A stretch of 64,000 nucleotides of DNA from an uncultured Gammaproteobacteria bacterium (GTDB taxonomy: Bacteria; Patescibacteriota; Patescibacteriia; UBA1558; 2-01-FULL-52-15). The stretch lies in the NCBI GenBank assembly GCA_964402565.1, contig CAYOCJ010000001.1, forward strand, positions 416,079 through 480,078, read 5' to 3'. Below, one piece after another: positions 41,480-60,658 of this stretch. The notes beneath the pieces were generated by a model, which did no database searches, was not told the origin of the DNA, and saw nothing but the letters and a program-made list of their open reading frames with translations. The stretch's first letter is position 1, and every line of letters begins with the position of its first letter. The position numbers were made by a program, and so were the translations under genes.

Positions 41480-41858
41480 ACCAACTGTGCTATCGTTTAT
41501 TTTGCAATCAAGGATATTTTTTTTGGTGCTTGTTTGCCTTGTTATCGTTAGCGGTGTTCGATTAAGCAATGAAATTGCACGCCGTATGGCCATCGCTTCA
41601 CAGATACATGCATTGCGCGATCAGGTAGATAAGCTTCGCGGGGAACGGGATTCGTTATCATACCTTATGACCACATTGTCATCTGATGCCTATATAGAGG
41701 ACGCTGCCCGAAAAAAGCTCAATATGGCAAAGACAGGCGAAAAAGTTGTGGTCATTCCTGAAGAAAAGCCTGCTGCGACAAACGTGGCTCATGCACCAGA
41801 ACAAAGTTCAAATATTGATCTCTGGTGGAACTATTTTTTTGAAGTTCATGCGAATTAG
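41454..41858 (+). CDS. FtsB/DivIC-like septum formation initiator (single TM + coiled coil)
   Basis: TM followed by IHALRDQVDKLRGERDSL coiled coil and a DAYIEDAARKKLNM tail typical of FtsB/DivIC. Alternative start at 41466. Confidence 0.6.
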   Translation: MLLRMKTNKPTVLSFILQSRIFFLVLVCLVIVSGVRLSNEIARRMAIASQIHALRDQVDKLRGERDSLSYLMTTLSSDAYIEDAARKKLNMAKTGEKVVVIPEEKPAATNVAHAPEQSSNIDLWWNYFFEVHAN

Positions 41859-42717
41859 AAAGCGTTTTATTATCGGATCATTGATAGGCGCGATCTTCCT
41901 TTTTTTAGTCGTTCCGCTTGTCTGGCTGTATACGGCGCCAAAGCAGAATACAATGACGATAGCGTTTGCAAGGACATTACGGCTTCCGTTTGCCCGTGTG
42001 AATGGTTTTTCTGTCACGCTATCGCAGGTATTAGATGATGTAGAGCTGATCAAACATTTCGAAGGGACTGATATCTCGTTGACCGATGAACAGGTACGTT
42101 CAAAAGTATGGGATCATATTCGAGAGGAGTATGGCATACGCAAGTTAGCCTCTGAGCAAAGTATTACCTGGACGAGCAATGAGGTAGAGGATTTTTTTAA
42201 GACTTTTTTGACATCCAATGAATTGGAAATAAGCGACTTGCAGCATACGATCCCGAACTTTAATGAGACGTATTTTAAAGAACATACGATACTGCCGATG
42301 TTGCTTCATCAAAAAATTGCAAAAAAAATGCTCCTTGCCGCAGATAACGATGCTGCCCGCGAAGCGACACAATTGCGCGAACAAGTTCAAAAGGATCCAT
42401 CGCAATTCGACGCTATCATACAGAAGCGTGCAGATGAACAGCATATCGCAGATGCGGGTTCTACGGTTTTGCTCAGCGCAGCGACGCTGGCGCCTGATGA
42501 GGTAAGTTTGCTGAAAGGTATTGCGGTTGGCGGCATTTCACCGATCATTGCGCGTGAAGATGGCTACCGGATTTATAAGGTCACTTCGCATTTTACACAG
42601 CCGGAGGAGGCGTGGCAGGTGAAGGAGCTCTTTGTACCGGCATCGTTATACGACGAAGCACTCGCGAAGATAACGAGTGCGCATGATGAGAAGGTATATA
42701 TTAAAGGTGTACTTTGA
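41848..42717 (+). CDS. membrane-anchored peptidyl-prolyl isomerase / foldase (SurA-N-like + parvulin-like; PrsA/PpiD-type)
   Basis: N-terminal TM, a chaperone-like helical domain and a C-terminal degenerate PpiC region (GGISPIIAREDGYRIYKV). The internal ATG at 41848 is preferred over the TTG at 41746. Confidence 0.6.
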   Translation: MRIRKRFIIGSLIGAIFLFLVVPLVWLYTAPKQNTMTIAFARTLRLPFARVNGFSVTLSQVLDDVELIKHFEGTDISLTDEQVRSKVWDHIREEYGIRKLASEQSITWTSNEVEDFFKTFLTSNELEISDLQHTIPNFNETYFKEHTILPMLLHQKIAKKMLLAADNDAAREATQLREQVQKDPSQFDAIIQKRADEQHIADAGSTVLLSAATLAPDEVSLLKGIAVGGISPIIAREDGYRIYKVTSHFTQPEEAWQVKELFVPASLYDEALAKITSAHDEKVYIKGVL

Positions 42718-52171: not shown

Positions 52172-54994
52172 ATGTCAGTACTAACGAAACTATTCGGCGA
52201 CGCTAATAAGCGTTTTTTAAATAAGCTCACTGAAGAAGTGGGAAAGATTTCTGCATTGGAAGAAAAATACACCGCATTTTCCGATGAAGCCCTGCGTGAG
52301 CAAACAACAGTGTTGAAAAAGCGAATCGTGGAACATGTCGAAAAGATTAAGGATGACCTGCACTCGCTTGAAAATACGATCCGTCTTACCGTTTCCGAGG
52401 ACGAAAAAAATCGGCTCAAACGGGAGCATATCGCACTAAGCAACTCAGCGTTGGATGATTGCATCCCCGATGCATTTGCCTTAGTGCGCGAAGTAGGGCG
52501 CAGAACATTGCAACAGAGGCATTTTGATGTGCAGCTGATGGGAGGCATTGTATTGCACCAGGGCCAAGTAGCTGAAATGAAAACGGGAGAAGGTAAGACC
52601 CTTACGTCTACCCTGGCTGTGTATTTAAATGCACTGAGAGGCAAAGGCGTGCATGTGGTAACCGTCAATGACTACCTTGCGAGACGCGACGCAATATGGA
52701 TGGGCCAGATTTTTTATTTTTTGGGCCTTTCCGTCGGAATCATTATCCATGATGCGTCCTACCTCTATGACCCGACCGCAACCACAAAAAAGGAAGATGC
52801 GGACCGGGATCAGGGTGTCAAGCTCGAAATGGAATATTTGCGTGAGGTTGACCGCAAAACAGCCTATGCTGCTGATATCACCTATGGAACAAATAATGAA
52901 TTCGGTTTTGATTATCTCCGCGACAATATGGTCCAGCATATGGACCAGAAAGTTCAGCGTGATCTGCATTTTGCCATCATCGACGAAGTCGACAGCATTT
53001 TGATCGATGAAGCGCGCACACCGCTCATTATTTCTGCGCCGGACGCAAAATCGACGGATAAGTACTATCAATTCGCTCAGATCGTAGAAGGACTGAGCAT
53101 CAAGGATGATTATGTGGTCGACGAGAAAGACCGCGCAGCTACGCTGACCGAGGCCGGTATCGCGAAAGTAGAAAAGATCCTGGGAGTCGAGAATATCTAT
53201 GTTGAACAGGGCATTCAGACAGTGCATCACATTGAGCAAGCGTTGAAGGCAAAGGCTTTATTTACGAGAGATAAGGATTACGCGATCAAGGATGGCGAAG
53301 TCGTGATAGTTGATGAATTCACCGGCCGCATGCTGCCTGGCCGCCGCTATTCAGAGGGCTTGCATCAGGCTATTGAGGCTAAAGAGGGGCTTACCATACA
53401 GCGTGAGAGCAAGACCATGGCAACCATAACCTTCCAGAATTACTTTCGATTATATTCCAAAATTGCCGGTATGACCGGTACAGCAGAAACAGAGGCTGAA
53501 GAGCTTGCGAAGATCTATAACCTTGACGTGACCACGATACCGACGAATAAGACCATGGTCCGCAAAGACCTGTCCGACAGGATCTATAAGAGCGAAGCAG
53601 GCAAATTCAAAGCAGTGGTCGAGGAAATCAAGCAGCGCACAGCAACCGGCCAGCCGGTTCTCGTCGGCACCATCTCGATCGAAAAAAATGAATTCTTGGG
53701 TTCGCTCCTTGAGCATGAAGGTTTGAAGTTCAATATTTTGAACGCAAAACAGCATGAACGAGAAGCTGAAACCATAGCGCAGGCAGGCAGCCTGAGTGCG
53801 ATCACGATAGCCACAAACATCGCCGGAAGAGGAGTCGACATCAAACTCGGAGGATCGCCATTCAATCAAGATGCATTCGACAAGATCGTAGCCTTAGGAG
53901 GACTGCATGTGATCGGAACTGAGCGCCATGAGTCTCGTCGTATCGATAATCAGTTGCGCGGACGTGCCGGCCGGCAAGGGGAACCTGGCTCGACGCAATT
54001 TTATGTTTCACTGGATGATGACCTGATGCGCATCTTCGGGGCAGAGCGCGTCAAAGCAGTTATGAAAAGCTGGCCCGAGGATGCTCCGATCGAGAATGCA
54101 TTCATTTCTAAGTCGATCGAATCCGCACAGAAGCGCGTCGAGGGCCATAATTTCGACATACGCAAGCACCTGGTCGAGTATGATGATGTGATCAATAAGC
54201 AGCGTACGCTTATTTACTCGAAGCGAGACCAGCTATTAGGCATCGGAGCCGAAGCCGCAGACGCTGAACTTCAAAATCTCGCGCAGCAAGAGATTAAAAG
54301 TGAAATAGAGGACGCTGTCTATTTTCATACGCAAACCGATGAGCGATCATCGTGGAAGATATCGGAGCTTATTGATTCCCTCAGGATTCTTTTGCAAAGC
54401 GATGCGTCCCAGGAAAAGGAAATGAAAGCTTTGCTCGAAGGAGGTATGCCTGCGGCTGCACGCGAAAAGGCCATTGATTTTTGCACCAAGCGCGCTGAGG
54501 AGCGGCTTGCGTCCCTCGCCGGGCAGGTTCAAAAGCAATTAACGACACCCGACCAGGCGCATCCTTTCAATGAGATCGTCAGGACATTGAATATACGGAG
54601 TATTGATATGCTGTGGGTCGATCACCTGGAGACGATTAATTATCTGCGCACCGGCATAGGCCTTCGCGGTTATGGACAACGGGACCCGCTTGTCGAGTAT
54701 AAGCGCGAGTCTAAGGACTTGTTTAATCGCCTGCTGGCTGATATTCGCAAGCAATTCGTGTATTCATTGATGAGCGTAACGGTTGGGACTCCGACGAAAT
54801 TGCAGTCCGGTCAGCATCAACATCTCCATGTCCAGGAGCAAAAGGCCAACTTGCAGGCATTTTCTGATGAAGAAGAACCTGAGCGCCAGAAGGTCATCTC
54901 AAAGCTGAAGAATGAACAGGGAGAGAAAATCGGCCGAAATGACTTATGTTTTTGCGGTTCTGGGAAAAAGTATAAGAAATGCCATGGGGCGTAA
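52172..54994 (+). CDS. secA: preprotein translocase ATPase SecA
   Basis: DEAD motor domains (MKTGEGKTL, DEVDSILIDEA). C-terminal zinc finger CFCGSGKKYKKCHG. Confidence 0.95.
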   Translation: MSVLTKLFGDANKRFLNKLTEEVGKISALEEKYTAFSDEALREQTTVLKKRIVEHVEKIKDDLHSLENTIRLTVSEDEKNRLKREHIALSNSALDDCIPDAFALVREVGRRTLQQRHFDVQLMGGIVLHQGQVAEMKTGEGKTLTSTLAVYLNALRGKGVHVVTVNDYLARRDAIWMGQIFYFLGLSVGIIIHDASYLYDPTATTKKEDADRDQGVKLEMEYLREVDRKTAYAADITYGTNNEFGFDYLRDNMVQHMDQKVQRDLHFAIIDEVDSILIDEARTPLIISAPDAKSTDKYYQFAQIVEGLSIKDDYVVDEKDRAATLTEAGIAKVEKILGVENIYVEQGIQTVHHIEQALKAKALFTRDKDYAIKDGEVVIVDEFTGRMLPGRRYSEGLHQAIEAKEGLTIQRESKTMATITFQNYFRLYSKIAGMTGTAETEAEELAKIYNLDVTTIPTNKTMVRKDLSDRIYKSEAGKFKAVVEEIKQRTATGQPVLVGTISIEKNEFLGSLLEHEGLKFNILNAKQHEREAETIAQAGSLSAITIATNIAGRGVDIKLGGSPFNQDAFDKIVALGGLHVIGTERHESRRIDNQLRGRAGRQGEPGSTQFYVSLDDDLMRIFGAERVKAVMKSWPEDAPIENAFISKSIESAQKRVEGHNFDIRKHLVEYDDVINKQRTLIYSKRDQLLGIGAEAADAELQNLAQQEIKSEIEDAVYFHTQTDERSSWKISELIDSLRILLQSDASQEKEMKALLEGGMPAAAREKAIDFCTKRAEERLASLAGQVQKQLTTPDQAHPFNEIVRTLNIRSIDMLWVDHLETINYLRTGIGLRGYGQRDPLVEYKRESKDLFNRLLADIRKQFVYSLMSVTVGTPTKLQSGQHQHLHVQEQKANLQAFSDEEEPERQKVISKLKNEQGEKIGRNDLCFCGSGKKYKKCHGA

Positions 54995-55196: not shown

Positions 55197-56909
55197 ATGA
55201 ATAAGTATCGAGTTGAGTCAACTAGACGCAGAATGTCATCCCGGACGCAGGTCCGGCTTAGTTTATTGGCCATCGTGCTCTTGGCTGGTTTTTTTTCGCT
55301 CATCGCCTGGCCGAATTTGCCGGCAGGTTTCCCCGCATCTGCATATTTTAATAAATTTTCTCCGCATCTTGGACTAGATCTGCAGGGAGGTACGCACTTG
55401 GTATATCAGGCAGACCTTTCCAATATTGATTCATCTGAAAAGAATTCAGCGATCGAAGGAGCTCGAGATGTCATTGAACGCCGCGTCAATACCTTAGGCG
55501 TTGCTGAACCGGTCGTTGAAACCGCAAATCAGGCTGGCAATGCCCGCATCATTGTCGAGCTGGCAGGCATTAAAGATGTTAATCAGGCTATCAAACTGAT
55601 CGGTGATACGCCTTTGCTTGAATTTAAGGAAACATCTGATCAAAAGGCAACATCCACTCAGCCGACAGCCGATCAGATTTCAGCTGTAACAAAGGCGAAT
55701 CAGGAAAAAGAAAAGCTCGCAAAGGAACTTATTGCACGATTGAACAAAGGTGAATCCTTTGATGAGCTGGCGAAAAAATATTCTGAGGATACATCGAAGG
55801 ATAAAGGCGGCGATCTTGGTTTCGTGACCAAAGGTGTCTTTACGCCGCTCTTCGAGAAGGCGATCTTTGACGAAATGAAGGTCGGAGAATTGCGCCAGAC
55901 ACCTCTAAAAACGGAATTCGGATACCATGTGATCAAAAAGTTAGAGGAGCGGACCAATGATAAGGGCGAGAAAGAAGTGCGTGCGGCTCACATTCTCTTG
56001 AAGACGGCTTCTATAGCTCCGGCGACCACCGATATACAGTGGGTCAATACTCAGCTCTCAGGCAAGAACTTGAAGCGTGCGCAGGTTACTTTTAGTTATC
56101 AGGCAAATGAGCCGCAGGTTAGTTTGATGTTCGACAGCGAGGGCGCTGACCTCTTCAAAACGATCACTGAACGCAATATTGGAAAGCAAGTCGGCATTTT
56201 TCTGGATGGTTCAGTTATTTCAGCGCCGACTGTGCAAACAGCTATTACCGGAGGTCAGGCGGTTATCACGGGGAATTTCGGTCTTAAGGAAGCTAAGCTT
56301 TTGGCGCAGCGCTTAAACGCTGGTGCATTGCCGGTGCCGATCTCTTTGATCAATCAACAGACCATCGGCGCTAGCCTTGGCCAGGATTCGCTGCAACGCA
56401 GTTTGCAGGCAGGCCTGATCGGCTTTATTTTGGTGGCTTTGTTTATGATTCTGTATTATCGATTGCCAGGCGTTCTCTCAGTATTGGCTTTGGCTTTGTA
56501 TGCCATTATCACGCAGGGGCTGTTTGAAATCATCCCAGTAACGCTGACATTAGCCGGTGTAGCTGGTTTTATTCTTTCTGTAGGTATGGCGGTCGACGCG
56601 AACGTGCTGATCTTCGAACGTGTCAAAGAGGAATTACGCTCCGGAAGCAGCTATCTGCAGGCAGTAGAGGATGGTTTCAAGCGAGCATGGTCATCGATTC
56701 GCGACTCGAATGTATCGAGCCTTATCACCTGTGCGATTTTGTATTGGTTCGGTTCTTCAATTATCCGGGGTTTTGCCGTCACATTGGCCTTAGGCATTCT
56801 CGTGAGTATGTTCTCGGCTATCAATGTGACTCGAACCTTCCTGCGTATTATCATCAAACGGCAGTTCATACAGAAGAGCTGGTTATTCGGAATTAGAAAG
56901 AATTCATAA
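55197..56909 (+). CDS. secD: protein translocase subunit SecD with an embedded parvulin-like (PpiC-type) segment in the periplasmic domain
   Basis: GLDLQGGTHLVYQ SecD motif and a C-terminal 6-TM SecD region. Residues ~165-270 carry GGDLGF....FGYHVIKK and a following AAHILLK, which are hallmarks of parvulin rotamases. Confidence 0.85.
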   Translation: MNKYRVESTRRRMSSRTQVRLSLLAIVLLAGFFSLIAWPNLPAGFPASAYFNKFSPHLGLDLQGGTHLVYQADLSNIDSSEKNSAIEGARDVIERRVNTLGVAEPVVETANQAGNARIIVELAGIKDVNQAIKLIGDTPLLEFKETSDQKATSTQPTADQISAVTKANQEKEKLAKELIARLNKGESFDELAKKYSEDTSKDKGGDLGFVTKGVFTPLFEKAIFDEMKVGELRQTPLKTEFGYHVIKKLEERTNDKGEKEVRAAHILLKTASIAPATTDIQWVNTQLSGKNLKRAQVTFSYQANEPQVSLMFDSEGADLFKTITERNIGKQVGIFLDGSVISAPTVQTAITGGQAVITGNFGLKEAKLLAQRLNAGALPVPISLINQQTIGASLGQDSLQRSLQAGLIGFILVALFMILYYRLPGVLSVLALALYAIITQGLFEIIPVTLTLAGVAGFILSVGMAVDANVLIFERVKEELRSGSSYLQAVEDGFKRAWSSIRDSNVSSLITCAILYWFGSSIIRGFAVTLALGILVSMFSAINVTRTFLRIIIKRQFIQKSWLFGIRKNS

Positions 56910-56912
56910 CGT

Positions 56913-57833
56913 ATGAGAAACCTTCATATCATCGAAAAACGCAAATTTTGGTACACGCTATCGCTGATTATTACCATTGGCGCGGTTATATCATTATCCG
57001 TCTTTGGCTTTAAATACGGCCTGGATTTTACGGGCGGGAGTTTGATGGAATTAGAGTATTCAAAATCGCGGCCGGCGAATGATACGGTAGTCAATTTCCT
57101 AAAAAAACAGGGCCTCGAAAATGTGCGTGTCCAGCCAAGCGGTGATAAGGGAGTCATTATGCGCTTGCCGGAAGTGAATGAAGAAAAGCATCAGCAGCTG
57201 CTGAAAGCATTCGCCGATGATGCAAAAAACATCGAGGCTGATGACACTGTGAATGAGTTGCGCTTTGAATCCTTTGGTCCGAGCTTGGGCAGCGAACTGA
57301 AGCGCCAGTCGATCTATGCAGTACTCTTAGTTCTCGCAGCTATTATTGCGTATCTTGCCTATGCGTTTCGTAAAGTATCGCACCCGGTGGCATCGTGGAA
57401 ATTTGGCACCGTTGCTGTCATTGCTTTGATTCATGATGTTCTTGTTTTGGTCGGCGTATTTTCACTGCTTGGCCATTTCTATGGAACAGAGATAGATAGC
57501 CTGTTTATCACCGCCCTCTTAACACTGCTCGGGTTCTCAGTGCACGATACCATTGTTACCATGGACCGTATCAGAGAAAATTTGTTCAAGCATCAGGATG
57601 AAACATTCGAAATGGTCGTGAACCGGAGCATTAATGAGACCATGTCGCGCTCCATAAACACCTCTTTGACTACATTATTTGCTGTGACTGCTATTTTTCT
57701 GTACGGAGGATCGTCTATACATGATTTCAGCCTTGCCTTAATGGTCGGTATTATCGTTGGCACCTATTCTTCTATCTTCATTGCTGCGCCACTGCTTGCT
57801 ACCTGGTATAAGTTCGATCGTAGAAAGAGCTAA
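56913..57833 (+). CDS. secF: protein translocase subunit SecF
   Basis: SecF architecture and motifs. Adjacent to secD. Confidence 0.9.
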   Translation: MRNLHIIEKRKFWYTLSLIITIGAVISLSVFGFKYGLDFTGGSLMELEYSKSRPANDTVVNFLKKQGLENVRVQPSGDKGVIMRLPEVNEEKHQQLLKAFADDAKNIEADDTVNELRFESFGPSLGSELKRQSIYAVLLVLAAIIAYLAYAFRKVSHPVASWKFGTVAVIALIHDVLVLVGVFSLLGHFYGTEIDSLFITALLTLLGFSVHDTIVTMDRIRENLFKHQDETFEMVVNRSINETMSRSINTSLTTLFAVTAIFLYGGSSIHDFSLALMVGIIVGTYSSIFIAAPLLATWYKFDRRKS

Positions 57834-57857: not shown

Positions 57858-57882
57858 TTGGGCCTTTTGGCCTCTTTTTTTG
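57858..57882 (+). terminator. intrinsic terminator after secF
   Basis: ggcc-tttt-ggcc followed by tctttttttg. Confidence 0.55.
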
Positions 57883-57904
57883 TTTATAGAAACTCTGCTG
57901 TCCC

Positions 57905-57941
57905 TATAATGCTTGACTAAATTTATTAATTATGCTATATT
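57905..57941 (+). promoter_or_regulatory. sigma-70-type promoter(s) upstream of the 57975 gene
   Basis: TATAAT at 57905-57910, and TTGACT (57913-57918), a 17-nt spacer, then TATATT (57936-57941). Confidence 0.5.
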
Positions 57942-57974: not shown

Positions 57975-59081
57975 ATGTCTCAGTCAATATTAGACCAAGT
58001 CTTGTCATCACAGAAACAATCAGCAATCTCACGTTTTGACGCTGCAGAAACAGCTTCAAAGCTTTTTGGCATACTGAATGAGCGCGAGCAAGATATTATC
58101 CAGAAGCGATATGGCTTGCACGGTAAAGATAAAAGTACGCTCGAAGAGATCGGAAAGAGCTATGCGGTGACCCGCGAGCGAATACGGCAGGTCGAAAATA
58201 CATCACTGAAGCGAATTCGCGAGTCTTTTAATGAAACAATATTAAAAGAGCTCGAGTATTTGATCCAGAATATACTTGAAGATCATGGTGATATCATGTC
58301 TGAAAGTAAACTGGTTAAAATGCTGCTTGCAGCAGAGGATGAGAAGTCTAGTGACGGCGCTTTGGTCCGTTTCTTGCTCAACCAGCTGCTTACTGACCGT
58401 TTGGAATCGGTCAAAGACTCAGATACGACATACAAAGCTTGGTCGCTACCGGGTGCAGACTGGGAAACCTACGATCATATCGTCAAACAATTGATAGATA
58501 TTATCGATACGCATGGAGAGCCATTAGCACTTGAAGCTTTGCTGAGCCATGCTCGCGATCAGATCAAGCTCGAGAATGAGATGCATCAGAATTTCGAGAA
58601 TATTATCATGAATTATCTGGATGTAACCAAGAAGATCGAAGAGAATAAATTCAATGAGTGGGGTTTGTCGCACTGGAACAGTATCAAGCCGCGCCGCATG
58701 AATGACAAGATCTATATGATCATGAAGCGCGAGAATAAGCCGATGCACTTCGTTGAGATCGCTAAAAAGATAAATGAGGCTGGCTTTGATACACGCGTTG
58801 CGTACCCTGCGACCATCCATAATGAGCTTATCCTTGACGATAAGTATGTTCTGGTCGGCAGAGGTATTTATGCTCTCAAAGAATGGGGTTATAAACCGGG
58901 CGTGGTCCTGGATGTTATCAAGGACACCATCCGAAAGAGTCCGAAACCGCTGACTCGTGACGGCATTATTGATGAAGTACTCAAGAATCGCATGGTCAAG
59001 CGGAGTACGGTTATACTCGCATTGATGAATAAGAAGCATTTTTCGAAAAATGCTGACGGAACATACGCAATAGCTGAGTAA
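57975..59081 (+). CDS. sigma-70 region-4 HTH + C-terminal HARE-HTH-like domain protein (putative transcription factor)
   Basis: N-terminus STLEEIGKSYAVTRERIRQVENTSLKRIR is a sigma region 4.2 HTH. C-terminus MHFVEIAKKINEAGF...VLVGRGIYALKEW matches the HARE-HTH / RpoE-delta N-domain pattern. No sigma region 2 is present. Confidence 0.6.
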   Translation: MSQSILDQVLSSQKQSAISRFDAAETASKLFGILNEREQDIIQKRYGLHGKDKSTLEEIGKSYAVTRERIRQVENTSLKRIRESFNETILKELEYLIQNILEDHGDIMSESKLVKMLLAAEDEKSSDGALVRFLLNQLLTDRLESVKDSDTTYKAWSLPGADWETYDHIVKQLIDIIDTHGEPLALEALLSHARDQIKLENEMHQNFENIIMNYLDVTKKIEENKFNEWGLSHWNSIKPRRMNDKIYMIMKRENKPMHFVEIAKKINEAGFDTRVAYPATIHNELILDDKYVLVGRGIYALKEWGYKPGVVLDVIKDTIRKSPKPLTRDGIIDEVLKNRMVKRSTVILALMNKKHFSKNADGTYAIAE

Positions 59082-59140: not shown

Positions 59141-60658
59141 ATGAACGCCTGGTTCGAACAAATTACCGTTTTTTTTGTTGAGCTTTCTACCAAGAATCCA
59201 CTGTCTATCATGTGGATTTTATTTCTTAAAGGAGGCTGGGTCATTGTCATGATCGGCTTGCTTCGGCTGTGGTGGCTGATGCGTTTATATTCGCTGCAAA
59301 CCAAGTACAGCAAAACCATCACGTATACCATGCTTGCCATAGATATTCCGAAGGCCAGCGAACAAACGCCGAAAGCCATGGAACAGGTGTTCGCTACTAT
59401 ATCTGGGGCGCATGCAGACTTCAACAAAAAAGAAATTTATCTGAAGGGAATGTACCAATTGTCATTTTCTTTCGAGATCATCAGTATTGACGGGTATATT
59501 CAGTTTTTGATTCGAACGCCATCGGTATTCCGAGATCTGATCGAAGGCGCGATCTATGCCCATTATCCCGACGCTGAGATCACGGAAGTGTATGATTATA
59601 CGACCGATATACCGACTAATTTCCCCAATGATAGATTCAACCTCTGGGGCGCTGAGATCGAAACTGCAGCAAATGAGGCGCTGCCGCTACGTACGTACGA
59701 GTCTTTCGAGGATAAATTGTCGCAAGAACTGAAAGACCCGCTGGCCGGCGTGCTCGAAACCATGAGCCGCATTCAAAAAGGAGAGCAAGTCTGGCTTCAG
59801 ATCATCGTGAAGCCGACGGACACCGCATGGGCGAAAAAATGCATCGCATATGCTCATAAGCTAGCCGGCAAGAAAACTGAGACCAAAAGCAGCAAATCCT
59901 GGTACTCGCCAATTTTGGGTTTTCTCTATGGCATGTTCGATGATTGGATATCATGGATGCCTGGCTCAAAAGTCGAATCGAAAAATGATAACGGGCTGGA
60001 TTTTAAAGTATTGAACCTCACACCGGGTGAACGCGCTACCATTGAAGCGGTGGAGCGGAAAGCTTCAAAGATAGGCTTCGTTTGCAAAATTCGACTCATG
60101 TATCTTTCTCCTCACGAGCAATTTTCCGCGAAGCGCGTTGTCTCCGCAGTATTCGGCGGTATGAAGCAATTCGGAGACCTCAGCTCAAATGCGTTGAAGC
60201 CCAATAAGCGGACAAAGACACAGGCAGTGTATTTCAGGCCAGAACAGCGCGCAGATGCACGGAGACGGAGGATCATGGGCAATTACAAAGCGCGCTCGTG
60301 GTTTAACGGATCAAAATACTTCATTTTGAATACTGAAGAACTTGCAACACTCTATCATTTCCCGTCGATCACGGTGACTACACCGTACTTGAAACGCACC
60401 GAGGCAAAAAAGAGCGACGCGCCTTCTCAATTGCCTTCCAGTGCTGAAGAGGTCATGGTGCAAGAAGAGAGCAACCTTAAGCAGCAGCTTGAAGGCTTAT
60501 CGCTCGATAATAGCTACTACGAAAAATTATACGCGAAAGGACCTGTTGAAAAACCCAAGCAAAAAGCGACGCTCAGTACTCCCGAAAAACAGCAGCCAGG
60601 TACACCAGCAATCGAGTCGAGTGACGGTGTCCCGCATAATTTACCGATACTGCAATGA
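59141..60658 (+). CDS. membrane-anchored hypothetical protein (2 N-terminal TM + ~430-aa soluble domain), coupled to T4CP-like ATPase
   Basis: 505-aa ORF with no motif recognised. Stop/start ATGA overlap with the downstream ATPase gene. Confidence 0.6.
   Translation: MNAWFEQITVFFVELSTKNPLSIMWILFLKGGWVIVMIGLLRLWWLMRLYSLQTKYSKTITYTMLAIDIPKASEQTPKAMEQVFATISGAHADFNKKEIYLKGMYQLSFSFEIISIDGYIQFLIRTPSVFRDLIEGAIYAHYPDAEITEVYDYTTDIPTNFPNDRFNLWGAEIETAANEALPLRTYESFEDKLSQELKDPLAGVLETMSRIQKGEQVWLQIIVKPTDTAWAKKCIAYAHKLAGKKTETKSSKSWYSPILGFLYGMFDDWISWMPGSKVESKNDNGLDFKVLNLTPGERATIEAVERKASKIGFVCKIRLMYLSPHEQFSAKRVVSAVFGGMKQFGDLSSNALKPNKRTKTQAVYFRPEQRADARRRRIMGNYKARSWFNGSKYFILNTEELATLYHFPSITVTTPYLKRTEAKKSDAPSQLPSSAEEVMVQEESNLKQQLEGLSLDNSYYEKLYAKGPVEKPKQKATLSTPEKQQPGTPAIESSDGVPHNLPILQ

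What the first reader, a model, noticed from the sequence alone, without database searches (positions are those of the whole stretch)
55689..56006. Parvulin-like rotamase segment embedded in the periplasmic domain of SecD
Residues ~165-270 of SecD read GESFDELAKKYSEDTSKDKGGDLGFVTKGVF...TEFGYHVIKK...AAHILLK. This carries the GGDLG and FGYHxIK signatures of PpiC/parvulin PPIases, apparently with the HIL strand permuted to the end. A foldase module inside the translocon accessory subunit would couple export to prolyl isomerisation. A separate PrsA-like protein is also encoded at 41848-42717.
Basis: seen in the sequence. Interest (0 to 1): 0.55.

Follow-up and report, generated by a model that had tools for sequence, protein, structure and literature searches.

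The report
SecD with a built-in, permuted parvulin foldase
The protein-export helper SecD of this candidate-phyla-radiation bacterium carries a rearranged prolyl-isomerase (parvulin) domain in its outward-facing loop, so the machine that pulls proteins out of the cell probably also helps fold them. The same fusion occurs in hundreds of related species.

Summary
The ORF at 55197-56909 is a true SecD (TIGR01129, 403 bits), followed by secF. Residues about 156-273 form a parvulin/PpiC domain (Pfam Rotamase_3, E 3e-22). It sits between the P1-base segment and the P1-head core, joined by two low-confidence linkers.

The domain is circularly permuted. It starts at helix alpha1, and the strand that is normally first (EVRAAHILLK, 259-269) follows beta4 as a hairpin. 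Moving that strand to the front raised the score against an independent canonical-parvulin HMM in 65 of 65 homologues, by about 9 bits over controls. A domain-only AlphaFold model is compact (pLDDT 95.6). The catalytic network D198/T239/H244/H265 is fully conserved (T or S at 239).

The fusion is not a one-off. All 120 listed protein clusters carry it, and at least 80 (possibly over 500) species-representative Patescibacteria genomes do too. About a third of those 80 have two parvulin units.

The most likely function is a tethered PrsA/SurA/PpiD-like foldase acting on chains captured by the P1 head. Activity is inferred, not shown. I found no paper describing the fusion or a permuted parvulin. 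I rate it a new variant of known kinds, of moderate to high interest.

The parts
55197..56909 (+). secD ORF (570 aa): TM1, large extracytoplasmic P1 loop carrying the parvulin insert, then TM2-6
   Evidence: ORF list. TIGR01129 secD 403.4 bits against a cut-off of 244.4. Pfam SecD_1st, SecDF_P1_head and SecD_SecF_C. phmmer to T. thermophilus SecDF 3aqp, E 3e-89. Foldseek of the full model to SecDF structures, E 1e-22 to 5e-25.
55239..55307 (+). TM1 (residues 15-37), which places everything up to about residue 394 outside the cytoplasm
   Evidence: Helix 15-37 in the AlphaFold model. The SecD topology, with P1 between TM1 and TM2, follows from homology to TtSecDF (PMC5974789).
55455..55637 (+). 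N-terminal segment of the P1 base (residues 87-147), ending in the LLEFKET strand
   Evidence: Pfam PF21760 SecD_1st, E 5e-18, profile 2-59 of 60. Aligns to TtSecDF 34 to about 126.
55641..55661 (+). Upstream flexible linker (residues 149-155)
   Evidence: pLDDT below 50 in the full-length model. This segment is variable in length and sequence among homologues.
55668..55955 (+). Parvulin core in the order alpha1-alpha2-alpha3-beta2-alpha4-beta3-beta4 (residues 158-253). Contains D198 (55788-55790), T239 (55911-55913) and H244 (55926-55928)
   Evidence: Rotamase_3 E 3e-22 and Rotamase E 3e-18. PrsA 4wo7 E 4e-18. Domain model pLDDT 95.6. Foldseek: 1zk6 81 columns at rmsd 1.3 A, 4wo7 86 columns at rmsd 2.4 A. 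D198 and H244 are invariant and position 239 is T or S in all 65 sequences.
55956..55970 (+). New beta4-to-beta1 turn (residues 254-258), the connection created by the permutation
   Evidence: Non-strand turn between E242-253 and E259-269. The wider alignment segment that contains it (reference residues 250-261) varies from 11 to 44 residues among homologues.
55971..56003 (+). Displaced beta1 strand KEVRAAHILLK (residues 259-269) carrying H265 (55989-55991)
   Evidence: H265, I266 and L267 are invariant in 65 sequences. Moving it ahead of the core extends the Pfam match to profile positions 14-115 and raises the score to 88.2 bits, against 80.3 and 81.1. It adds 8.4-9.4 bits over four controls in 65 of 65 homologues with an independent HMM. 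It aligns to the beta1 of the next domain in SurA, EVHARHILLK. pLDDT is about 98 in the domain model.
56016..56030 (+). Downstream flexible linker (residues 274-278)
   Evidence: pLDDT below 50 in the full-length model.
56040..56372 (+). P1-head core and return to the base (residues 282-392)
   Evidence: Pfam PF22599 SecDF_P1_head, E 6.6e-32, on residues 285-380, covering profile positions 19-114 of 114. Aligns to TtSecDF from residue 160 onward.
56379..56855 (+). TM2-TM6 (residues 395-553), including the conserved GMAVDANVLIFER motif with D467
   Evidence: SecD_SecF_C, E 1e-16. Helices in the model. D467 is invariant and aligns to the TM4 Asp of TtSecDF in 'gaavdgnvlsfer'.
56913..57833 (+). 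secF, 3 nt downstream of secD; the partner subunit
   Evidence: SecD_SecF_C E 2.6e-59 and Sec_GG E 1.2e-9. A terminator-like hairpin lies at 57860-57873.
52172..54994 (+). secA, immediately upstream (context: a secA-secD-secF cluster)
   Evidence: ORF. SecA Pfam domains are recorded on the identical contig.

Best explanation
This is a genuine SecD, the proton-driven accessory subunit of the Sec translocon, from a Patescibacteria (CPR) genome. A parvulin-type peptidyl-prolyl isomerase domain of about 118 residues has been inserted into its extracytoplasmic P1 loop. The insert lies between the P1-base segment and the P1-head core and is held by two flexible linkers. The parvulin is circularly permuted: the chain enters at helix alpha1 and runs to beta4. 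It then turns back as a hairpin to supply the strand that is normally the first one (beta1, with the HIL histidine). This leaves both ends of the domain together, as an insertion into a loop requires. The four residues of the parvulin catalytic hydrogen-bond network (Asp198, Thr239, His244, His265) are all conserved. Proposed mechanism: the P1 head captures the unfolded chain as it leaves SecYEG and swings under proton-motive force. The tethered parvulin binds the same chain next to the exit site and catalyses prolyl cis/trans isomerisation, and/or shields the chain. It would thus act as a built-in equivalent of PrsA, PpiD or SurA. Shown here: domain identities, the insertion site, the permuted order, residue conservation and clade-wide distribution. 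Inferred: enzymatic activity, hand-over of substrate, and the exact spatial slot of the displaced strand.
For: SecD identity comes, and parvulin identity. The insert lies between TtSecDF residues of about 127-151 and 160 and is flanked by linkers with pLDDT below 50. Evidence for the permutation: the Pfam match lacks profile positions 1-27. The artificial re-permuted and tandem constructs restore a contiguous full-length match, whereas a control strand does not. An HMM built from 200 non-SecD parvulin domains gives +10.7 bits over the core alone and +8.4 to +9.4 bits over four controls, positive in 65 of 65 homologues. The domain-only AlphaFold model has pLDDT 95.6 and pTM 0.87, with strands 242-253 and 259-269 forming a hairpin. 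The rest of the core superimposes on PrsA parvulin at 1.3 A over 81 columns. Beta3 occupies the other side of beta4, so the hairpin partner can only fill the beta1 slot between beta4 and beta2 (inference). Conservation: D198, H244, H265, I266 and L267 are invariant and position 239 is T or S in 65 sequences of 54-85% identity. Distribution: all 120 listed clusters have SecD plus Rotamase domains, and the 80 best of at least 522 matches in species-representative genomes span the junction. Functional plausibility from the literature: the P1 head contacts precursor proteins (PMC5974789). AlphaFold models put the two parvulin domains of SurA on the SecDF P1 head, and SurA binds the holo-translocon (PMC9987972). 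PrsA-like PPIC lipoproteins form a folding dome on SecDF-SecYEG in Mycoplasma (bioRxiv 10.1101/2025.04.25.650208 and 10.1101/2024.09.05.611430).
Against: I had no model coordinates and no permutation-aware structural aligner, so the strand's place in the sheet is deduced, not measured. No activity data exist. The parvulin domains of PpiD and SurA P1 are known to be catalytically inactive yet useful (background knowledge), and the two parvulin histidines may serve partly structural roles, so their conservation does not prove catalysis. The position of the parvulin relative to the P1 head and to SecYEG is not reliably predicted (full-length pTM 0.54). In the two-parvulin relatives one unit has lost its histidines, which shows the scaffold can persist without catalysis. 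Many record titles in the genome collection are unreliable, so the exact taxonomic limits are uncertain.
Confidence: 0.72

Rival explanations
1. The embedded parvulin is a non-catalytic substrate-binding (holdase) or docking module. It would enlarge the polypeptide-capture surface of the P1 head, like the inactive parvulin of PpiD or SurA P1, without isomerising prolines.
For: In the two-parvulin relatives the outer unit has lost the beta4 His in 29 of 31 sequences, and the trailing-strand His in 22 of 31, yet it is retained. The free-standing PrsA-like protein in this window also has a degenerate parvulin. The P1 head itself is a promiscuous binder of unfolded chains (PMC5974789).
Against: In the single-parvulin form found here, all four catalytic-network residues are 100% conserved across 65 sequences, as are the substrate-pocket residues L207 and F219 (63 of 65 each). 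In the two-parvulin forms one unit always keeps both histidine positions. This suggests selection to keep one catalytically competent site per SecD.
Confidence: 0.22
2. The trailing HIL strand is only a leftover of a lost second parvulin domain, or part of the linker or P1 head. On this reading the parvulin is simply truncated, lacks beta1 and is not permuted.
For: The sequence beta4-short linker-EV..HILLK is exactly what occurs at the junction of tandem parvulin domains in SurA and in B. fragilis PPIase 8hm4. Two-parvulin SecDs exist.
Against: A useless remnant would not keep H265, I266 and L267 invariant. The domain-only model, built without the P1 head, folds the strand into the domain at pLDDT of about 98 and pTM 0.87. 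A low-confidence linker (274-278) separates the strand from the head. A parvulin sheet without beta1 would leave beta2 unpaired.
Confidence: 0.05
3. The fusion is an artefact: an assembly chimera or a frameshift-joined secD and prsA.
For: None found.
Against: The ORF is uninterrupted. The identical protein occurs on three contigs from independent assemblies. The same architecture is found in all 120 listed clusters and in 80 of 80 fetched loci from different species-level genomes.
Confidence: 0.01

Closest known systems
Canonical SecD / SecDF (Thermus thermophilus SecDF, PDB 3AQP, 5YHF; Deinococcus SecDF 5XAM, 5XAP)
   Same: TM1-P1-TM2-6 layout, P1-base and P1-head subdomains, the conserved TM4 Asp motif, and an adjacent SecF. 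E 3e-89 by sequence and E of about 1e-22 to 5e-25 by fold.
   Different: The canonical proteins have only about 30 residues (Tt 127-159) where this protein has about 135 residues that include a whole parvulin domain. No PPIase domain is present in any solved SecDF.
PrsA (Bacillus subtilis lipoprotein foldase, PDB 4WO7, 1ZK6)
   Same: It is the closest parvulin by sequence (E 4e-18, 48-51% identity over the core) and by fold (rmsd 1.3-2.4 A). It is an extracytoplasmic, membrane-tethered foldase of monoderm bacteria that acts on Sec substrates.
   Different: PrsA is a separate lipoprotein whose parvulin has the canonical order (beta1 first) and is inserted in an NC chaperone domain. Here there is no NC domain, the strand order is permuted, and the carrier is SecD. 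NCBIfam PrsA models score far below their cut-offs (68 against 361).
SurA with SecDF-containing holo-translocon (E. coli)
   Same: SurA carries parvulin domains, and AlphaFold models place its P1 and P2 parvulin domains on the SecDF P1 head. Binding of SurA to the holo-translocon was shown biochemically (PMC9987972). The SurA P1-to-P2 junction sequence matches the beta4-to-beta1 junction here.
   Different: The SurA interaction is non-covalent and involves a soluble periplasmic chaperone of diderm bacteria. Here the parvulin is covalently built into SecD.
PpiD-YfgM at SecYEG (E. coli)
   Same: A membrane-anchored, parvulin-containing chaperone stationed at the translocon exit that promotes translocation (PMC9643414).
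   Different: PpiD is a separate single-pass protein with a SurA-like chaperone module and an inactive parvulin, and it binds SecY. Here the catalytic residues are intact and the carrier is SecD.
Mycoplasma pneumoniae 'dome' complex (Mpn444/436/489 PrsA-like lipoproteins on SecDF-SecYEG)
   Same: A genome-reduced, outer-membrane-less bacterium couples PPIC-domain foldases physically to SecDF at the translocon exit. Substrate density contacts the active PPIC domain (bioRxiv 10.1101/2025.04.25.650208; 10.1101/2024.09.05.611430).
   Different: The Mycoplasma system is a non-covalent assembly of very large lipoproteins. The CPR solution is a single small domain spliced into SecD itself.

Membership tests
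SecD (TIGR01129 / Pfam SecD_1st + SecDF_P1_head + SecD_SecF_C) | Score above the curated family cut-off | tested here: met
   TIGR01129 scores 403.4 bits against a cut-off of 244.4. TIGR00916 scores 237 against 148.6. All three Pfam domains score above their gathering thresholds.
SecD (TIGR01129 / Pfam SecD_1st + SecDF_P1_head + SecD_SecF_C) | Six TM helices with a large loop (P1) between TM1 and TM2, and an RND-like fold | tested here: met
   AlphaFold model: helix 15-37, then TM helices spanning 395-553. Foldseek top hits are SecDF structures, followed by RND pumps.
SecD (TIGR01129 / Pfam SecD_1st + SecDF_P1_head + SecD_SecF_C) | Conserved proton-pathway Asp in TM4, and a partner SecF | tested here: met
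   D467 is invariant and aligns to the Asp of Tt 'gaavdgnvlsfer'. secF starts 3 nt downstream.
SecD (TIGR01129 / Pfam SecD_1st + SecDF_P1_head + SecD_SecF_C) | PMF-dependent stimulation of translocation | not testable with these tools
   Requires biochemistry or genetics.
Parvulin / PpiC-type PPIase (Pfam PF00639, PF13616) | HMM score above the gathering threshold | tested here: met
   Rotamase_3 scores 79.7 bits against 22.5. Rotamase scores 67.0 against 21.7.
Parvulin / PpiC-type PPIase (Pfam PF00639, PF13616) | Parvulin fold (four-stranded antiparallel sheet packed by four helices) | tested here: met
   Domain model pLDDT 95.6. Foldseek: 1zk6 TMt 0.79 at rmsd 1.3 A; 4wo7 and 8hm3/8hm4 at rmsd 2.2-2.7 A.
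Parvulin / PpiC-type PPIase (Pfam PF00639, PF13616) | Canonical sequential order beta1-alpha1-alpha2-alpha3-beta2-alpha4-beta3-beta4 | tested here: not met
   Profile positions 1-27 are unmatched at the N-terminal side. The beta1-like strand lies after beta4. The fold is the same but the connectivity is permuted.
Parvulin / PpiC-type PPIase (Pfam PF00639, PF13616) | Catalytic network: His (beta1), Asp or Cys, Thr or Ser, His (beta4), corresponding to Pin1 H59, C113, T152 and H157 | tested here: met
   H265, D198, T/S239 and H244 are conserved in 65 of 65 sequences. The mapping to Pin1 numbering is by my own alignment from memory of the Pin1 and PrsA sequences.
Parvulin / PpiC-type PPIase (Pfam PF00639, PF13616) | Measured peptidyl-prolyl isomerase activity | not testable with these tools
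   Needs a protease-coupled or NMR exchange assay on the purified domain.
PrsA foldase (NCBIfam NF002846 and related) | Lipoprotein with an N- and C-terminal chaperone domain flanking the parvulin; score above the equivalog cut-off | tested here: not met
   Best PrsA model scores 67.9 bits against a cut-off of 361, and only the parvulin part aligns. No NC domain is present; the flanks are SecD P1.
SurA / PpiD-type chaperones | SurA_N-type chaperone module attached to the parvulin(s) | tested here: not met
   No SurA_N or Trigger_C hit on SecD. The SurA model scores 48.5 bits against a cut-off of 394.

The most novel reading that the evidence does not exclude
Across much of the Patescibacteria, SecD is a combined translocation motor and foldase. 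It carries a naturally circularly permuted, catalytically competent parvulin, and in roughly a third of species it also carries a second, canonical parvulin (possibly nested in the permuted one), which gives a SurA-like P1+P2 pair. On this reading the fusion is a 'Rosetta-stone' proof that the SecDF P1 head and parvulin chaperones form one functional unit at the translocon exit. It may also replace free PrsA/PpiD activity in these minimal cells.
Probability: 0.45. Interest if true: 0.72.

Novelty: new variant of a known kind. Interest (0 to 1): 0.6.

Why it matters
How unfolded proteins are handed from the Sec channel to extracytoplasmic folding factors is an active question. SecDF has been proposed to recruit SurA through its P1 head (PMC9987972). 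PpiD sits at SecY (PMC9643414). Mycoplasma builds a PrsA-like dome on SecDF (bioRxiv 10.1101/2025.04.25.650208).

A covalent fusion of a parvulin to the SecD P1 region, conserved in a large bacterial radiation, is independent evolutionary evidence that these two activities belong together. It offers a compact, single-chain system in which to study coupling of PMF-driven pulling with prolyl isomerisation.

It is also, as far as I could find, the first natural circular permutation of the parvulin fold. Related one- and two-domain forms look like intermediates of the duplication-and-truncation route to permutation. In practical terms, thousands of database entries named only 'SecD' hide a PPIase domain that matters when the chaperone repertoire of CPR genomes is inferred.

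Tried and rejected
- **8hm3/8hm4 as a possible solved permuted parvulin.** The top Foldseek hit (106-110 columns, TMq 0.72-0.75) made me ask whether a solved structure already has the permuted topology. I recovered its sequence through P0212. It is an ordinary SurA-like protein with a beta1 before its first parvulin and a second domain starting at 'RHILLK'. I therefore do not claim it is permuted. I could not determine why it aligns over more columns; a longer alpha1 is possible.
- **Representative-library search with the insert alone.** It was dominated by proteins with 2-6 tandem parvulin domains, so it did not measure how many SecD clusters carry the insert. It did reveal the two-parvulin SecDs.
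- **Organism names.** Cluster look-up gave none. Many genome record titles ('uncultured Gammaproteobacteria', 'Bathyarchaeia', 'Binatia', 'Lysobacteraceae') conflict with the CPR-type gene and were not trusted.
- **NJ tree of the SecD backbone.** It has no outgroup and is rough. It shows the two-parvulin forms in several clusters, but it cannot say which form is ancestral.
- **Literature searches.** Searches for a SecD-parvulin, SecD-PPIase or SecD-rotamase fusion and for 'parvulin' with 'circular permutation' found nothing relevant.
- **Rejected readings.** These were an assembly artefact, an ordinary P1-head sequence and membership of PrsA, SurA or PpiD.
Full report
**What is at the coordinates.** Window 55689-56006 (+) is in frame with a 570-codon ORF at 55197-56909 and encodes its residues 165-270. 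The ORF lies between secA (52172-54994) and secF (56913-57833, only 3 nt downstream). A terminator-like hairpin follows secF at 57860-57873.

The ORF is a true SecD. TIGR01129 scores 403 bits against a cut-off of 244. Pfam finds SecD_1st (residues 87-147), SecDF_P1_head (285-380) and SecD_SecF_C (383-553). phmmer to T. thermophilus SecDF gives E 3e-89. The TM4 motif GMAVDANVLIFER, with the proton-pathway Asp (D467), is invariant in the family.

**The insert is a parvulin.** Residues 163-251 hit Rotamase_3 (E 3.2e-22, 79.7 bits) and Rotamase (E 3e-18). The best solved relatives are B. subtilis PrsA (4wo7, E 4e-18), SurA and PpiC/Par10.

In the alignment to T. thermophilus SecDF, the flanks match Tt residues 34 to about 151 and 160-439. 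The extra material therefore sits where Thermus has only about 30 residues, at the boundary between the P1 base and the P1-head core. The P1_head profile is matched only from position 19.

A full-length AlphaFold model (pLDDT 82.5) shows a confident domain at 156-273. It is bracketed by two linkers with pLDDT below 50 (149-155 and 274-278), so it looks like a tethered module. Its orientation relative to the rest is not reliable (pTM 0.54). TM1 (15-37) precedes the loop, so the parvulin is on the outer face of the membrane.

**Is it permuted?** The Pfam match begins at profile position 28 of 116, so the N-terminal beta1 strand (the 'HIL' strand) is missing in front. A sequence EVRAAHILLK follows beta4 after a five-residue turn. 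I tested this in four ways.

- **Artificial constructs against Pfam.** Moving residues 256-270 in front of the core extended the Rotamase_3 match to profile positions 14-115 and raised the score to 88.2 bits. The core alone scored 80.3, and a control with an unrelated 15-mer scored 81.1. A head-to-tail duplicate of the insert gave a contiguous match to profile positions 8-115 across the junction.
- **An independent HMM.** I built an HMM from 200 canonical parvulin domains of non-SecD proteins and scored 65 SecD homologues. The re-permuted order gained 10.7 bits over the core alone. It gained 8.4-9.4 bits over four controls (next segment, upstream segment, reversed strand, shuffled strand). The gain was positive in 65 of 65 sequences, and the alignment then started at the beta1 positions of the model.
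- **Conservation.** H265, I266 and L267 are invariant. So are D198 and H244, with T or S at position 239. Together these are the parvulin hydrogen-bond network, corresponding to Pin1 C113/H59/H157/T152 (mapping from my own knowledge). The alignment segment spanning the beta4-to-beta1 connection (reference residues 250-261) varies from 11 to 44 residues among homologues, as expected for a connection created by permutation.
- **A domain-only model.** A model of residues 154-276 is compact and very confident (pLDDT 95.6, pTM 0.87), and strand 259-269 has pLDDT of about 98. The core superimposes on PrsA's parvulin at 1.3 A over 81 columns. Beta3 flanks beta4 on one side and 259-269 is hairpin-connected to beta4. 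The only place left for that strand is the beta1 slot between beta4 and beta2. This last step is a deduction, because I had no coordinates and no permutation-aware aligner.

**Where it came from.** phmmer aligns the insert contiguously to the first parvulin domain of SurA and on into the first strand of the second one (EVHARHILLK). B. fragilis PPIase 8hm4 has the same junction (GFHIIQLIEKRGDRINTRHILLK). An out-of-register piece of a tandem parvulin array, running from alpha1 of one unit through beta1 of the next, would give exactly the observed order. This is the classical duplication-and-truncation route to circular permutation. It is an inference.

**Distribution.**
- The 120 best protein clusters (54-100% identity) all carry SecD plus Rotamase Pfam domains. 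Where named, they are called only 'protein translocase subunit SecD' of Patescibacteria, Komeili-, Uhr-, Nomura- or Kuenenbacteria.
- I scanned one genome per species with an alignment spanning the parvulin/beta1/P1-head junction. It found at least 522 tblastn-confirmed stretches, some of which may be partial matches. The 80 best all cover the junction. Their titles include Buchanan-, Falkow-, Moran- and Magasanikbacteria and Parcubacteria, plus some implausible labels that I distrust.
- Parsing those 80 loci with my own HMMs gave 51 SecDs with one parvulin and 29 with two.

**The two-parvulin forms.** I examined 31 such sequences, including P0251 and P0261.

| Element | His retained |
|---|---|
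| First core, beta4 His | 2 of 31 |
| Middle strand (ASHILICY-like) | 29 of 31 |
| Second core, beta4 His | 31 of 31 |
| Trailing strand | 9 of 31 |

One catalytically intact unit is therefore always kept. The pattern suggests a canonical domain nested in, or following, a degenerate permuted one. In a rough NJ tree the two-parvulin forms fall in several clusters among the single forms.

**How it most likely works.** Published work shows that the SecDF P1 head contacts precursor proteins and swings between membrane-facing and upright forms, driven by proton flow (PMC5974789). Other work links SecDF to parvulin chaperones that act in trans:
- SurA binds the holo-translocon, and AlphaFold puts its two parvulin domains on the P1 head (PMC9987972).
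- PpiD-YfgM sits at SecY (PMC9643414).
- In Mycoplasma, PrsA-like PPIC lipoproteins form a dome over SecDF-SecYEG in which substrate density touches the active PPIC domain (bioRxiv 10.1101/2025.04.25.650208; 10.1101/2024.09.05.611430).

Against that background, I read the CPR protein as a covalent version of the same partnership. A tethered, probably active parvulin meets the emerging chain at the P1 head and accelerates prolyl isomerisation and/or shields the chain. The main rival is a purely non-catalytic binding role. The degenerate units in two-parvulin relatives make this plausible, but strict conservation of the catalytic network in at least one unit per protein argues against it. An artefact is excluded.

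**Comparison and novelty.** The host is a member of SecD, and the insert is a member of the parvulin family by HMM, fold and catalytic residues, but with non-canonical connectivity. It is not PrsA, SurA or PpiD, because their chaperone modules are absent and the family models fall far below their cut-offs.

The architecture is visible as precomputed Pfam hits in sequence databases. Six literature searches found no description of a SecD-parvulin fusion or of a circularly permuted parvulin. I therefore classify it as a new variant of known kinds. It should interest Sec-translocon and chaperone specialists as Rosetta-stone evidence, and as a compact experimental system. Interest 0.6.

Noticed in passing
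L040, L049-L051, L053-L055, L057-L064, L066, L068-L074, L078-L083 (match at about 2501-2950 in most of these loci); proteins P0251 (686 aa) and P0261: About a third (29 of 80) of species-representative SecD-parvulin genes carry two parvulin units. The first core has almost always lost the beta4 His. The middle strand (ASHILICY-like) and the second core keep theirs. The trailing strand usually lacks His. This suggests an intact canonical parvulin nested in, or following, a degenerate permuted one, giving a SurA-like pair on SecD.
   Followed up: partly
Its parvulin is degenerate (GYRIYKV instead of GYHIIK, with no HIL strand). It is probably a non-catalytic chaperone, and no other intact parvulin was identified in the parts of this window that I examined.
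   Followed up: partly
proteins P0121-P0269, e.g. P0121 (430 aa, 4 units), P0122 (1039 aa, 5 units), P0207 (760 aa, 5 units): There is a large population of proteins made of 2-6 tandem parvulin domains, plus a family of about 660 aa with two parvulins at about 140-335. These outrank SecD in similarity to the insert and are possible donors of the out-of-register fragment. Their identity and taxonomy were not examined.
   Followed up: no
homologues P0074, P0075, P0081, P0103, P0105 (alignment A1, between reference residues 253 and 259): Some SecD homologues (the named one is Kuenenbacteria) carry acidic or Asn-rich expansions of about 20-33 extra residues exactly in the beta4-to-beta1 turn. This is the same place where the second parvulin sits in the two-domain forms.
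   Followed up: no
L005, L012, L013, L018, L009, L051 and others (record titles): Contigs carrying this CPR-type SecD are titled 'uncultured Gammaproteobacteria', 'Bathyarchaeia archaeon', 'Lysobacteraceae', 'Binatia' or 'Bdellovibrionales'. These are probably placeholder or mis-binned labels, so taxon names in this collection should not be used to claim spread outside Patescibacteria.
   Followed up: no
window 55641-56039, compared with PDB 5mg3_D and 3aqp_A: The stretch between the P1 base and the P1-head core varies in length between lineages. The point equivalent to query residue 301 is at about residue 174 in Thermus SecDF and residue 341 in E. coli SecD. This site therefore looks like a general hot spot for lineage-specific insertions in SecD.
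   Followed up: no
window 57975-59081 (+) and 59141-60658 (+): Downstream of secF lie a 368-aa protein with a Sigma70_r4 domain (plus a faint HARE-HTH hit) and a 505-aa DUF8128 membrane protein. The same neighbours are recorded on the identical public contig. Promoter-like sites lie at 57883-57941.
   Followed up: no
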